Shown: positions 3,469 through 62,379 of the stretch, piece by piece
How positions within the stretch are numbered: the first letter of the stretch is position 1
Layout: every line of letters starts with the position of its first letter
NCBI GenBank assembly: GCA_951406725.2
Contig: OX597819.1
Location: forward strand, 70,804,001-70,868,000
From: Octopus vulgaris
Lineage: Eukaryota
Reading direction: 5' to 3'
Length of the DNA: 64,000 bases
The notes under the pieces: model-generated
Told to the model about the DNA's origin: nothing
Database searches by the model: none
Seen by the model: only the letters and a program-made list of their open reading frames with translations
Program-made: the position numbers and the translations under genes

Positions 3469-4011
3469 CTAGCAGAGATACCCGGCGTTGCCCGGTTACA
3501 TTAAATTGAAGAATTATACTTTTCTGTTATATTTTCTATAATGAACTGGAATATCTATGTTTCGGATTTCATCAAAATTGCAGATGAGGGTTATTTCCCT
3601 CTTTACACACCCTAAAAAAATTGTAATCGTGCCACATGTATCGCATGCTACTGATTTTTATGCGCATATTCCAAAATTCCAGTGTTATTGAACCTGTTAA
3701 AAAGATTTTGCTCCTAAAAAATGAAAGTCATGGAGCTCTAAAATGTGAGAGTTAAGGCCCCTGTTGAGGTGGGCATCTTAATATCAACCAGAGAAGTTGA
3801 ATTGTTGAAAATCTTTTTAACTTGGGTCTTATATCTATTGTTTGAATTTCTTTGAAATATGAAATATATGTTCACTGGGTTTGTAAAAGAGAACAGAACT
3901 ACAGGAAACCAAAAGACGGATGATTACAATAAGCTGTCAGTTACCCTACCCTAGTCGTTACTTGAAGTACCGGTTCAAGAACTATGTTATATATATATAT
4001 ATATATATATA

Positions 4012-4064
<53 letters not shown>

Positions 4065-4686
4065 TTATATATATATATGTATACACACACACAAAGATAA
4101 ATTTATAGATACAACTGAGTGGGCAAACAAAAATATGAGACACTTCGTAGTGCTTTTTTAATATTTTGATAAGCCTGGTACTTATTCTATCAGTTTCTTC
4201 TTGTGAAACCAGTAAGTTAAGGGGATGTAAATAAACGAACACCAGTTGTGAAGCAGTGATGAGGGAGAAACACGAAGACACACACGTAGACTTACATATA
4301 CACATACACATACATACAATTGATTTCTTTCAGTTTCTGTCTACAAAATCCACTGACAAGGCTTTGGTTGGTCTCAGGCTATAGCAGAAGACACATGCCA
4401 AGTTACCACACAGTGGGACTGAACTGAGGACCATGTGTTTTGGAACCAAGTTTGTTACCACACAGCTGCACCTGCACCTATGTATGCGTGTGTGTATGTA
4501 TGGGTGGGTGGATCGGTGTGTGTGTATGGGTGTATATATGTATGCATGTATATATATATGTATATATGTATGTGTACATATTACATGTACATCTATATAT
4601 ACATCAAGACATACATGTTTACATATACATGTATATCTATAGAAATACATCTATACATATACATGTATACATATACATCTATATAT

Positions 4687-4726
<40 letters not shown>

Positions 4727-5115
4727 TCATGTATATATATATATATATATATATCCATATACATACAATAGAGAGGTGCTTTTGTTTCACTTTTAACACG
4801 TAATACTGAAATAGTGGAGAAGATGTGATATTGCTGTGGGCTCGCCCTATGCAAGAAGTTAAACATGACACTACATGGACCCTAAGTAAGGCATGTGTAA
4901 AATTTGAATGAAATTGGTTCTGTATTCCGCAAGTTTTAGGGATTCATGGTGGAGAAGATATGATATTGGTATTGGCTCGCCCTAGGTAAGAAGTTAAAAA
5001 CATTTTTTGCCTATGACACTCCTTGGACACTAAGTAAGGCATATTTGAATGAAATTGGTTGTGTAGTTCTCAAGTTTTAGGGATTCAGACAGTCAGACAC
5101 ACATTCTCAGTTATA
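3469..5115 (-). mobile_element. Non-autonomous Helitron-like element containing SINE fragments
   Basis: Minus-strand 3' end CCGGGCAACGCCGGGTATCTCTGCTAG|T. The 5' end reads ATATATAACTGAGAATGTGTGTCTG. About 135-bp tandem units at 4813-4946 and 4949-5087. Confidence 0.55.
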
Positions 5116-5133
5116 TATATATATATATATATA

Positions 5134-5628
5134 CTAGCAGTATTGCCCGGCTTTGCGAAATGGTCACATTTAATTCAAAGCGTTAAAAATGTTATGAAAA
5201 CAATTGGTATGTGTTCACAAAGTCCAAACGATTAATACGAAAAAACCCTCCAGGCTACATCCCGAAAATTCATTTCTTTGCCGAATTTATACAATGTTTA
5301 CGGCAATTGGTTTTTATATATTTATTTTTTTTATTTTTCATGCAATTTACGCATCCTTGCACGCGTGGTGAACACAGTTCACGTCAAACAGCTGACTGAG
5401 TAAAGTTCACTATTCATTGCATGGGATAAGGCCTAAACAAACACATTATCGATTTTTGCACTTGCGAGATGAATTTTGGAACAGAAATAGCGCAGTTCAA
5501 TTTTCATTCACCTAACCTTTAAGTGGCCCATTTTTGGTGGTTCTACGATTTGTTGGCTAGGAGGAGATGTGCCGGGAAGTTAAACACACAGACACACACA
5601 CAGATACACACACAGACACACAAGTTGA

Positions 5629-5640
<12 letters not shown>
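5134..5640 (-). mobile_element. Non-autonomous Helitron-like element
   Basis: Minus-strand 3' end GCAAAGCCGGGCAATACTGCTAG|T. The 5' end reads TATATAAAACTCAACTTGTGTGTCTGTGTG, inside (TA)n. Confidence 0.55.
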
Positions 5641-5676
<36 letters not shown>

Positions 5677-6088
5677 AAAAGGTAGATTTTCTCTGCCTGT
5701 TCCCATGTTTCTTTTTAATACAATTCTACAATATAGAATTTCTTCAATTGGAATTTACCTATGATTTTTCCAAGTAGATTCGATTGGGTCATGGCATGTA
5801 AAGTTTTTTCAATTTGACCCCCAATTAAGCAAAAATTCGAGAAAACTTAATATTTTACGATTTGCCTCTTTCATTTCAAGTGGTTTACTCCTGCTATTAC
5901 CACCACACTTTCTCCTACTTTCTCTTTTCAAGTGTGAAACTATTAACGTGAAAGTATTATATAACAGGGATGAGCACTTAATAGTGGTCGTCCTTTTTCC
6001 TAGAGGAAGATCCGCTATGGTCTTATATGCTATGCCACTGGTTTTCAATTCATATTAATCAAATTAATATTCAATTTTTCACCCTTAT

Positions 6089-19281: not shown

Positions 19282-19495
19282 ATATGTATCTGTTTGTCCC
19301 CCTCGACATGGCTTGACAACCGATGCTGGTATGTTTACATCCCCGTGACCTAGCAGTTCGGCAAAAGAGATCGGTAGAATAACTGCTAGGCTTACAAAGA
19401 ATAAGTCCTGGGGTCGATTTGCTCGACTAAAGGTGGTGCTCCAGCATGGCCGCAGTCAAATGAGTGGAACAAGTAAAAGAGTAAAGAATAAAGAG
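19024..19495 (+). mobile_element. Full-length family A SINE nested in a family D SINE
   Basis: Near-identical to 7490-7900. Family D sequence lies on both sides (18955-19020 and 19496 onward). Confidence 0.85.
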
Positions 19496-19573
19496 TACCT
19501 GTAATTCAATGGGCTAACCTTGGTTACGTTCTGTGTCATGCCGAATCTCCCTGAGAACGACATCGATACGCGT

Positions 19574-19816
19574 AATGCAGTTCTATATTTAAGAGATAAG
19601 GAATTATGTACATTATTTACATTATTTACATTATTTACATTATTTACATTTGACGGATATTTGTCCTCGTCTTCTTTGTTGCTAACACAAGTTTTCGGCT
19701 GATATATCCTCCTGATGAAGGTTGGCGGGTATATCAGCCGAAACGTTGTGTTAACAACAAAGAAGATGAGGATAAATATCCGTCAAATGTAAATAATGTA
19801 AATAATGTAAATAATT
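19574..19816. mobile_element. Palindromic hammerhead-bearing element (Penelope-like inverted pseudo-LTR)
   Basis: About 95-bp inverted arms. Core CTGATGA-A-GGTTG...CAGCC-GAAAC-GTT-GTGT at 19712-19751. 9-bp TSD GATACGCGT (19565-73, 19817-25). Confidence 0.75.
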
Positions 19817-20816
19817 GATACGCGTGTCTGGGGAGTTTTACGAACATGCTGTTCCGTTGATCGGATCGACTGGAACCTTCGTCGACGTAACCGACGGAAC
19901 ACCAGATTAATAACACTCAACACCCACCCTCAGAATGCCTGACTTCGTGACTATGTCAATAGATAATGCACCAGTCAGTTACCGAGTTAGAATTTTTTCT
20001 GACTTTCGCTTGTTTTCTCTCTTCTTCTCATTCTACATGGTGATAGTGTCGTGGGTGACCATTCTGCCTCTTTTCTCCAAGAAGCAGTGCCCATGCTAGA
20101 GCACTGCCATTGTTGTAATTGTTAGCTTAATTTTTTTTTTAATGTCCACAACTCTCCCACGCTGTCTGAGTATGGTGAGTGAATGAGCTGGACCAAAGCT
20201 GTCCTTATTCATGTTTCTCGTCAAGGCGGGGTTCATTTGGTATCTCAGATAAGAAAAAGAAATGTCTTTAAGATTTTTTGAACAGATCCACATCCATACC
20301 TCGCAGATTTTCCTGCTTCTGGAATTAACAACTTCTACACGTCTAATCTGCAAAGAAACCAGAGAACAATACATTTTTTTAATGAATTAGCATAATCGAC
20401 TGCGGATAGCCTAGATGAATCAATTCTGACTTTTGCCACCGCGGGAAATAACCAAATACACAAGTCTTTCCTAGCATAATACCGGGGTCATTTGCTGTCC
20501 CTTTCCTCTTGGAGTTTATTCTTTCCCCACAGAATTAATTCAGCTCTATAACTATTTTCACAATTTGGTGAACTGGGTTAAGTTGATAATTGTGTCATAA
20601 CTCGCTATCCATAAGGCCACCCGCACTACATCGGCGGACTTCGTTAGTTTCCGTCAGCCAACATTCAATCACAAGACCTAGGTCGACTATATGTACACAC
20701 CCAAAAATTTGATACAAACCATTAGTATTATTGTTATTACTAATCCTTTACCGCCCACCCGTCGATTCTCAGATTCACATACTTCATAATCCGTCTGTTT
20801 GCCTTTTAATAGCTGT

Positions 20817-23627: not shown

Positions 23628-23698
23628 GCATCGGTGGTTCAGTGGTAGAATGCTCGCCTGCCACGCGGGCGGCCCGGGTTCGATTCCCGGCCGATGCA
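23628..23698 (+). tRNA. tRNA-Gly-GCC: tRNA-Gly (anticodon GCC)
   Basis: 71-nt cloverleaf with a perfect acceptor stem GCATCGG/CCGATGC, anticodon GCC at 23660-62, and intact A and B boxes (GGTTCGATTCC). Confidence 0.97.
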
Positions 23699-33390: not shown

Positions 33391-35401
33391 ATGCAATTAT
33401 AGTCTTGGAAGCTGTAGAGTCCCCCGAGGATACAAGATGAGCGTTATTTGTAATTCAATGCTACAAGAGTGTAAGGGTTTGCTTTGAGATATACTTAGAT
33501 TGTGATTTCTGCAATGTGGTGCATAAATTGTCAAGTAAAGGAGACGTATCTTTGCCTCCACTGATTCAGTTGCAAAGTGTTATTTTGAGTAAAGTTATTT
33601 AGTTACAGACCTCCTTTGAGTCTATTTATCACTGGGTCAGAGATAGTCCCCAGATTGTAAAATTGATTTCCAGGCCTTTCCAGATAAGTGATTGGTCATT
33701 TAAATAGATTTATAGATTGCAAATTTATTCTGTTCAATTACCTATCGGCATAGTGATCATTGGCAAACTCCAGAGGTGACACTTTCATTTCCCCTAGACC
33801 TCACTTCAAACAGTTGTTAATGTTCATTTGTGTTGGGTCACGCCCTTCCAATTGCCATAGATCCGTAATGCATCTTATGGCTGTGCCGGTCACCTGTATT
33901 GGTGAAGAATCCTACATTGGGAGTGGTAACGGTTAGGATAGGGTTGCTGACTGCCTGAAGACGATTGGACCGATGGATGTCCAGCGCCCAAGAGGACCAC
34001 ATTCTATATTGCGACATTTCATGAAGGTGGTCTCGCTGAAGTCTTTAAAAGAATCTACATGGCATTTCAAAACAGAAGTAAAAAACATACTTGTTTCTTA
34101 CCACACAGCCACGCTCGCGCCTAACGACAGGCGTCTTTCAGTTTCCGTCTTCCAAATCCACTCACAAGGCTTTGGTCAACCCGAGGCTATAGTAGAAGAC
34201 ACTTGCCCAAGTTGCCACGCAGTGGGACTGAACCCAGAACCATGTGGTTGGGAAGTAATGACAGAAAACGTGATGATCGCAACTGCCCCAGTTGTCACGT
34301 TGTCGGATTATTAATCCGAAGGGTTTCAGTTTGCCTCAAATCGCAAACCGTTCTATGAGTCCGGAGCGAAAATATTGAACCTGATGAAAAGTGTTCTTGA
34401 GCAAAACACTCCATTCAGTCCATGCTTCAGTTCACTCATCTGTTAAATGAGTAAACCCTGCGCCTGAATGGCAAGGGAAATGTTTTGATCACGGTCGCTT
34501 ATAGGTCATGGAAGCCAGCTAACCAGCTGTTTTTAGCATCATCATCAGCAGCAGCATCAGTAGCAGCAGCAGCAGCAGCAGCATTAGTAGTAGTAGTAGT
34601 AGTATGAGGGCATGCTCTGTAACAGCGCGTTGCTGCATCCACCATTTGCTGGTGATTCCCTACTACCCCTGGTAGATGTCGCCTCTGCATCATTCAGGTC
34701 AGAGTGCAAATCCGACCTCAGCGTATTTTAGTCGCTTTTTTACAACACACCAAGGTAAACGTTCGGTTTTATTCTTCGACGGTCCGCACACAGCTATTTT
34801 AAGTGCGTGTATTGATAAAATAAATATTGTTTTCTCTCTCCTTGTTTTTTTTTTTAATTTAGAAATTTTAATTTTTTTATTTTACAGCGACGAAACACTA
34901 GAATTTAGGGGATCATTTAGGATGTTGTGATTTCCATGACTTTCCAAATTCCATTAGTGAGATAAATGAAATAAAAGTAGTCCTAATCCTGTTTTCGGTC
35001 CTGAATCGTGTCAGTCCATATCTATGCGTATCTCGTGTTTATAAACACCCGCTACAAGTAAATATTAATTTCAAATTTTGGTACAAGGCCTGCAATTTCG
35101 GGGGCAAGGGGTACTTATTTTATCGACCCCGAGTGGATGGGTCGACCTCGGAGGGCTTTGAATTCAGAACGTAAAGACGGACGAAATGCCGTTAAGCATT
35201 TTGCTCGGCGTGCTTACGATTTTGCCAGCTCGTAGCCCTCGCTCAAATAAAAATTGACTGATTGCTTACTCAGTGGTTCCCAAGATTTTCGGGTTGCCGC
35301 CCCCTTGACTCTCAGGCCACATTCCTAGCGCCCCTACTCCCAACTAACCATTACAAACATAGACCGCTTTCTGAAGCAAATTCAAACCAACTGTATTTCA
35401 C

Positions 35402-35678
35402 CGTTCTACATTTTAGAGAAGAGCAATTCTGTATATTATTTACATTATTTACATTGGACGGATACGTGTCCTCATCTTGTGTTTCGGCTGATTAACCTCC
35501 AGCCTTCATCAGGTGTCCTGATAATAACACCAGCAAAAAAATTCCTTAGGAATGAGAACCCAGGGTTGGGTTCAAAATTCCATCAGGACACCTGATGAAG
35601 ACTGGAGAGTAAATCAGCCGAAACGTTGTGGTAACAACAAACAAGATGAGGACACATATCCGTCCAATGTAAATAATG
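35402..35678. mobile_element. Second palindromic hammerhead-bearing element (same family as 19574-19816)
   Basis: Inverted arms with hammerhead cores on both strands (35588-35630 plus; about 35481-35517 minus). 13-bp TSD AACTGTATTTCAC (35389-35401, 35679-35691). Confidence 0.75.
35588..35630 (+). ncRNA. Minimal type I hammerhead motif
   Basis: ACAC-CTGATGA-A-GACTG-loop-CAGCC-GAAAC-GTT-GTG. Confidence 0.55.
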
Positions 35679-35918
35679 AACTGTATTTCACAAATAAAAC
35701 TTAACCTAATGAACCCATTATTTTGTTGTTTTTACATGAATCTCTATCCCATTTTTGCCCCACTTTTCTTTAAAGCTCCTTTGGAACTTACAACCGCTCC
35801 CAGGGGAACAATACTGCCCACTTTGGGAACCACTGTATGTAAGCCTTACGTAGTTTGAAAAAGAGTGTTGGGATGTTTTGTTTTTTGCGGGGTAGGATTC
35901 GTAGGTATGAGAGACAGA

Positions 35919-61744: not shown

Positions 61745-62190
61745 CTCTCTCTCTTTCTCTCTTTCTCTCTCGTTTTATATTTGATATAATTGATGTAAGT
61801 CAATTAAAACCACTTTTCTGTTTCAAAAACACGCAACAAATATGAAAGGTTATTGGAGTCGACACAGTTTCGTTGACGTTGGAATAAACTTCTAAGTTGG
61901 AGAAATGATTTTACTGCTATGCTTTTAGAAAGTAGCGCCATGAAAGCGTATGGGATGGAGACGTGATACATAGGAAACGCTGTCTTGCAGTGAATTGAAA
62001 TTAGTTTTCGGTGGTTGAAACCTTTGATCATAAAAGATGTATGATACTTTTATATCGATAAAAAAAAAAAAAAGAAAAGAATGCGTGTTGAATTAAAATT
62101 TTTAGGAATATAAGAATTTTTCAGAATTTTCAAGAATATTCTAGACAGTGTTGAGTATATATATATTATTTTATATATATATATATATAT

Positions 62191-62379
62191 TACTCTTTTA
62201 CTTGTTTCAGTCATTTGACTGTGGCCATGCTGGAGCACCGACTTTAGTCGAACAAATCGACTCTAGGACTTATTCTTTGTAAGCCTAGTACTGATTCTAT
62301 GGTTCTCTTTTGCCGAACCGCTAAGTTATGGGGACGTAAACACACCAGTATCAGTTGTCAAGCGATGTTGGGTGGACAA

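What the first reader, a model, noticed from the sequence alone, without database searches (positions are those of the whole stretch)
19574..19816. Tiny palindromic hammerhead element inserted as a unit with a TSD
Seen: 243 bp with ~95-bp inverted arms ending in (ATTATTTAC)n, the core CTGATGA..CAGCC-GAAAC-GTT-GTGT, a 9-bp TSD and a one-sided ~35-nt tail (GTTCTATATTTAAGAGATAAGGAATT) shared with the copy at 35402. Established: Penelope-like elements show inverted pseudo-LTRs with a tail extension and minimal hammerheads. Inference: a non-autonomous ribozyme-bearing retroelement that looks like a MITE. This copy lost the 5' strand of stem I at the inversion point.
Basis: partly seen in the sequence, partly recalled or inferred. 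Interest (0 to 1): 0.7.

Follow-up and report, generated by a model that had tools for sequence, protein, structure and literature searches.

The report
Penelope retrotransposon end with tRNA head
This 243-base palindrome is two back-to-back, cut-short copies of the end repeat of a protein-coding Penelope-type jumping gene, a known kind of insertion; the unusual point is that the full repeat begins with a tRNA-like head where most longer copies start, which likely acts as the element's promoter.

Summary
In detail: 243 bp, a 9-bp TSD, ~93-bp inverted arms, a one-sided 34-nt tail, a minimal hammerhead motif, and a second copy with a 13-bp TSD. Retrotransposition is supported. Among 87 distinct inverted insertions (116-1406 bp), 65 of 66 resolved junctions differ, a TSD was found in 52 (8-24 bp, mode 12-13), and the tail is on one arm in 81 and on both in none. 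It is not a separate MITE-like family. The arms are the pseudo-LTR and ORF start of a Penelope-like element with RT and a GIY-YIG-like C-terminus, and RT-bearing copies end in the same sequence. This anatomy is published. The variant feature lies outside this copy: the pseudo-LTR starts with a tRNA-Arg-like head with A/B boxes, and 42 of 50 head-bearing arms begin within 26 nt of it (about 10% expected). Solo pseudo-LTRs therefore likely act as SINE-like templates (Pol III inferred, untested). Cleavage is untested, and this copy's ribozyme is probably dead. The scan already noted this family on other DNA.

The parts
19565..19573 (+). left target-site duplication (9 bp)
19574..19712 (-). inverted arm: 5'-truncated pseudo-LTR running through the tail; reads in the PLE ORF frame (..KYPSNVNN..VHNSLSLKYRT)
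   Evidence: same frame continues into the PLE N-terminus in L072
19578..19611 (-). 34-nt PLE tail (start region of the ORF), this arm only
19612..19647 (-). four 9-bp repeats (in-frame VNN codons)
19711..19815 (+). direct arm: 5'-truncated pseudo-LTR ending in three 9-bp repeats, no tail
19712..19752 (+). minimal type I hammerhead motif: core 19712-18, extra A, stem II 19720-24/19735-39, GAAAC-GTT 19740-47, predicted cut after 19747; 5' strand of stem I mostly lost
   Evidence: descriptor from PMC4209133; cleavage not tested
19817..19825 (+). right target-site duplication (9 bp)
35389..35691 (+). second insertion of the family (35402-35678) with 13-bp TSD, a different inversion point, stem I strand present, core at 35592, in-frame ATG at 35552

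Best explanation
The insert is a dead, doubly 5'-truncated, head-to-head inverted copy of the pseudo-LTR and ORF start of a protein-coding Penelope-like element, likely written into the genome in one event by that element's reverse transcriptase and endonuclease. Shown: the arms match the terminus of RT-bearing copies; junctions, lengths and TSDs vary from copy to copy; 3' ends fall at two places ~34 nt apart (the 9-bp repeats or the tail end), with the tail on one arm only. Inferred: the endonuclease makes a staggered cut (mostly 12-14 bp); cDNA starts at those two sites; the second arm arises by fold-back of the cDNA or by priming of the second strand on a template from the same source, so the palindrome is built at insertion and does not itself replicate. 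Inferred (about 0.55): the usual template is a short RNA that starts at the tRNA-Arg-like head of a solo or downstream pseudo-LTR and is read by Pol III, i.e. a built-in SINE. The hammerhead motif lies inside the ORF's first codons; in the parent it would work only as a dimer or with protein help, and in this copy it is probably inactive.
For: Of 19 RT-selected loci, 11 continue ORF end - head - (AAT)n - hammerhead region - 9-bp repeats, and 8 show an inverted pseudo-LTR piece upstream (one more has the inverted ORF end and pseudo-LTR). L072 has an open frame from the hammerhead into a PLE-type N-terminus. RVT_1 hits: E 1.2e-8 (1 of 4 pieces) and 3 of 5 family pieces. ESM Atlas neighbours at 0.96-0.97 are RVT_1 + HTH_animal clusters, one with GIY-YIG in 47% of members. 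TSD in 52 of 87 inverted insertions vs 1.7% of 300 mismatched flank pairs. Tail on one arm in 81 of 87, both in 0 (P 6e-10 if independent). 65 of 66 resolved junctions distinct, 27 with overlap. The two arms share subfamily alleles: at core N7, 44 of 49 A/T pairs agree; at head position 64, 17 of 19. Head: 49/73 identity to a genomic tRNA-Arg(TCG), z 7.3, best of 26 tRNAs; HMM E 6e-5 vs best of 500 shuffles 0.036. 42 of 50 arms stop between +15 and -11 of the head (36 by the script, 6 more re-read by eye), about 10% expected. The same anatomy is described in PMC3846280 and PMC8557442; two RT start sites flanking the tail in PMC11167929.
Against: No intact full-length copy was found; all long copies seen are broken, and the family is old (arms differ by 9.2%). 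The GIY-YIG call rests on a motif read by eye; Pfam did not hit it. Aragorn found no tRNA in 7 of 7 loci and Rfam none in 3 of 3. Lack of T4 runs is weak support for Pol III: 0 seen vs 4.5/2.6/1.5 expected (P 0.006/0.048/0.23), and G4 runs are also 0. RNA reads showed no start or end pile (both strands about equal, possibly another species). 35 of 87 insertions had no scored TSD. 5 of 49 N7 pairs disagree and (AAT)n lengths differ between arms, so strict fold-back is not shown. All position-ordered samples come from the first part of one contig and were picked by exact patterns.
Confidence: 0.85

Rival explanations
1. A distinct non-autonomous palindromic element (MITE-like retroelement) that is transcribed and moves as a 240-bp hairpin unit.
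For: The best 40 matches to the query are mostly short palindromes. Some short tandem units joining ORF start to pseudo-LTR recur (L050, L058, L060 share a junction; L056 repeats one).
Against: Those matches were picked for likeness to the query. In position-ordered samples lengths run 116-1406 bp and 65 of 66 junctions differ; 50 of 70 arms run back through the whole pseudo-LTR body.
Confidence: 0.05
2. Ordinary 5' truncation of full-length Pol II transcripts; the tRNA-like head is a captured relic, and the pile of 5' ends reflects an RT stop, fold-back at the short GCCC/GGGC inverted repeat, RNase P-type processing, or a Pol II internal promoter as in D. virilis Penelope.
For: The head starts with a short inverted repeat, and several copies show fold-back letters there. 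A TATA-like motif lies about 28 nt upstream. Penelope has a LINE-like internal promoter (PMC2377424). The ORF must be translated, which favours capped RNA (established knowledge).
Against: Stop rate at the head is over tenfold that upstream or downstream. A and B boxes are intact in the majority sequence. Head-start arms have longer (AAT)n (median 56 vs 31 nt, P 0.005) and more N7=A (27 of 97 vs 1 of 19, P 0.04) than ORF-linked ones, hinting at separate solo sources (the ORF set was chosen by likeness to one copy).
Confidence: 0.35
3. A DNA transposon (MITE) with terminal inverted repeats.
For: Long inverted arms and a TSD.
Against: TSD length, ends and centre all vary, one end has a tail, and the arms belong to an RT-coding element.
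Confidence: 0.01

Closest known systems
EN+ Penelope-like elements with C-terminal GIY-YIG (Pen2a_Av, PMC3846280, passages read; PAc Poseidon, PMC11167929, parts 1-2 of 4 read)
   Same: Inverted 5'-truncated pseudo-LTR, 30-40-nt tail on one arm, ~9-10-bp TSD, pseudo-LTR holding the first codons of the ORF, hammerhead overlapping the ORF start, two RT start sites flanking the tail.
   Different: The pseudo-LTR begins with a tRNA-Arg-like head plus (AAT)n, and most copies start there; no such head appears in the passages I read. Clade (Penelope/Poseidon) is assigned from domain order and recalled motifs, not from a tree.
Minimal hammerheads of metazoan PLEs (PMC4209133, parts 1-2 of 4 read)
   Same: No helix III, palindromic ACGU, an extra base after the core, G10.1-C11.1, short helix I; dual motifs 100-700 bp apart on opposite strands were already noted there.
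   Different: The cut triplet is GUU; this copy lacks most of the 5' strand of stem I.
Non-LTR retrozymes (PMC7229834, passages; bioRxiv 10.64898/2026.07.22.740005, parts 1-3 of 5)
   Same: Non-coding, hammerhead-bearing, related to PLE pseudo-LTRs; a few loci here hold 250-320-nt tandem units.
   Different: This copy is inverted, not tandem, and the family is mostly dispersed truncated ends.
tRNA-derived SINEs, including hammerhead-bearing schistosome Sm-alpha/Sj-alpha (recalled, not from a call)
   Same: tRNA-like head with A/B boxes at the 5' end of short dispersed copies.
   Different: Here the head is an integral part of the coding element's terminal repeat, directly after the ORF stop.

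Membership tests
EN+ PLE | RT ORF linked to the repeat | tested here: met
EN+ PLE | C-terminal GIY-YIG endonuclease | tested here: inconclusive
   motif VYSIPCSCGRLYKG..R..EH seen; no Pfam hit; one Atlas neighbour cluster has GIY-YIG in 47%
EN+ PLE | pseudo-LTRs in partial tandem or inverted arrangement | tested here: met
EN+ PLE | 30-40-nt tail on one end | tested here: met
   81 of 87 one arm, 0 both
EN+ PLE | variable TSD | tested here: met
   52 of 87, 8-24 bp, 31 of 52 at 12-14
Penelope/Poseidon clade | placement on an RT tree | not tested
   no reference RTs fetched
minimal type I hammerhead | core, stems I and II, palindromic 15.2-16.2 | tested here: met
   family majority, stem II fold; stem I not met in the 19574 copy; no covariation shown
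minimal type I hammerhead | self-cleavage | not testable with these tools
   5' ends near the cut: 3 of 66 arms vs 0.9 expected, P 0.06
MITE / DNA transposon | fixed ends and fixed TSD | tested here: not met
non-LTR retrozyme | tandem units each with a hammerhead | tested here: not met
   this copy is inverted; tandem units only at some other loci
tRNA-derived SINE | tRNA-derived head with A/B boxes at the 5' end | tested here: met
   family level only, absent from this copy; Aragorn and Rfam negative
tRNA-derived SINE | Pol III transcription | not testable with these tools
   T-run test weak; RNA reads uninformative

The most novel reading that the evidence does not exclude
A protein-coding Penelope-like retrotransposon whose terminal repeat is itself a tRNA-derived Pol III unit: it would start both the full 2.9-kb coding RNA (no T4 terminator in the sense majority) and short SINE-like RNAs, with the in-ORF hammerhead and a two-site, one-tail priming rule shaping every insertion.
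Probability: 0.3. Interest if true: 0.7.

Novelty: new variant of a known kind. Interest (0 to 1): 0.4.

Why it matters
The palindrome itself is ordinary PLE anatomy and a trap for MITE annotators. The family matters for two open questions. How are PLE pseudo-LTRs transcribed, and how do they spawn non-autonomous forms? A tRNA-type promoter inside the repeat would give a direct route. How do inverted arms and the tail arise? The strict rule (tail on one arm in 81 of 87, never both; arms sharing alleles) is a constraint that the existing in vitro PLE assay can test.

Tried and rejected
Rfam listed no hammerhead in the shown window matches or three loci, and no tRNA at the head. Aragorn found 0 tRNAs in 7 loci. 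A DNA search with the 69-nt head gave no candidates; an exact pattern then gave 986. No RNA holder was listed by the look-up of sequencing runs. Three raw RNA runs of a possibly different species laid 4,000-5,800 reads each on both strands, with no start or end pile: uninformative. 5' ends at the hammerhead cut are not significant; 7 arm ends at positions 93-96 among the inverted insertions coincide with a natural palindrome and are ambiguous. The N7 T/A variation is not proof of ribozyme selection, because it is also a third codon position (Asp/Glu). The T4-run test is null-dependent. Shared rare variants between arms are in excess (0.37% vs 0.15%, one or more of 500 shuffles reaching it), but gene conversion or subfamily timing could also give this. 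Paper searches (listings only) showed no report of a tRNA-headed PLE. Repbase/Dfam entries, subscription journals and supplements were not seen and may hold it.

Full report
Observation. The second window copy has a 13-bp TSD and a different centre. Paralogues of its host repeat show the empty site (4 of 7 hits span it), so the TSD is real.

Family. The window lies in a 2.8-Gb genome. The 243-bp query gave 5632 first-look candidates. Exact motifs gave 3602 hits (hammerhead 27-mer), 5564 (3' 26-mer) and 986 (head 31-mer); the reversed controls gave 0. I examined 192 entries: the 2 window copies and 190 position-ordered loci from contig C1. Of these, 87 were distinct inverted insertions, 89 were not resolved as inverted (not de-duplicated; some broken by long microsatellites or nested repeats), and 16 were dropped as duplicates. 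The inverted insertions span 116-1406 bp. A TSD was scored in 52 of 87 (null 1.7%), 31 of them 12-14 bp; lengths are uncertain by a few bases, and the longest lie in simple repeats. Of 66 junctions resolved outside the (AAT)n run, 65 differ. The tail is on exactly one arm in 81 of 87 and on both in none.

What the arms are. Past the tail, other copies continue into an open frame with a PLE-type N-terminus, then RT and a GIY-YIG-like C-terminus (the N-terminal and endonuclease motifs are recognised from my own knowledge). The window's own arms translate in that frame, with the 9-bp repeat coding VNN. An in-frame ATG lies about 35 nt before the hammerhead core (L073), so the ribozyme motif sits inside the coding start, as in PAc (PMC11167929). 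RT-bearing copies end in ORF stop, ~30-nt spacer, head, (AAT)n, hammerhead region, 9-bp repeats with or without tail, and many carry an inverted 5' arm. The tiny palindrome is thus the short end of a continuum, the structure described for Pen2a_Av (PMC3846280) and for PLEs generally (PMC8557442).

The tRNA-like head. It is 49/73 identical to a genomic tRNA-Arg(TCG), the best of 26 distinct tRNAs, which cover only some isotypes. Of 50 arms holding the head's middle, 42 start between +15 and -11. The script placed 36 there; I re-read 6 calls at -14 to -22 as fold-back letters. The other 8 run on to between -20 and -519. Background truncation is 0.003-0.004 per nt, so about 10% were expected (4 of 70 arms were left out of the downstream rate as internal deletions or N). 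A transcription start at the head is the simplest reading, and Pol III follows from the A/B boxes by inference. RT stop, fold-back, processing or a Pol II promoter remain rivals. Head-start arms differ modestly from ORF-linked ones in (AAT)n length and N7 allele. The sense majority has no T4 run in 2592 nt, but this is weak. RNA reads did not help.

Mechanism of the palindrome. The two 3' end classes match the two RT start sites reported for PAc. They are not chosen independently, and the arms mostly share subfamily alleles. This fits fold-back self-priming, as proposed in PMC3846280, or asymmetric priming by a dimer on same-source RNA. My data do not separate these two.

Ribozyme. The family fits the published min-HHR description. 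Activity is untested. In this copy stem I is lost and any read-through RNA would fold as a long hairpin.

Novelty. The anatomy is known. I found no tRNA-headed pseudo-LTR in the listings of five searches. The scan's own notes report the same reading on other DNA of this genome and in other genomes. I wrote down my reading before the first look-up; those notes are unreviewed and not independent support.

Papers seen: PMC11167929 parts 1-2 of 4; PMC4209133 parts 1-2 of 4; bioRxiv 10.64898/2026.07.22.740005 parts 1-3 of 5; passages only of PMC8557442, PMC3846280, PMC7229834, PMC2377424; no supplements.

Verdict: a real feature, ordinary as a palindrome, and a variant of interest at family level. 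Interest 0.4.

Noticed in passing
L050, L056, L058, L060 (G000 C29, C24): Tandem 250-280-nt units joining the ORF start directly to the pseudo-LTR, each with a hammerhead; three loci on C29 share one junction. Candidate nascent retrozymes.
   Followed up: partly
L052:1170-1760: Both inverted arms carry nearly the same unusual ORF-start/pseudo-LTR junction, suggesting one template for both arms.
   Followed up: partly
L230:3-2195 (-): A 731-aa stop-free frame with RVT_1 (E 5e-31) and a weak PHD-like hit, from a different retroelement near a PLE copy.
   Followed up: no
window 23628-23698 (+): tRNA gene with GCC anticodon (Rfam 66.7 bits).
   Followed up: no
window 19299-19484 and 19490-19900: The palindrome sits inside a diverged copy of another common repeat, next to a further repeat also found inverted at 62190-62375.
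   Followed up: partly
window about 13427 (-): A lone CTGATGA core-like motif without a matching 3' half; not part of this family.
   Followed up: partly
L112, L322, L325 (G000 C1:21-22 Mb): The same insertion with identical flanks at several places, i.e. later duplication of the surrounding DNA.
   Followed up: no
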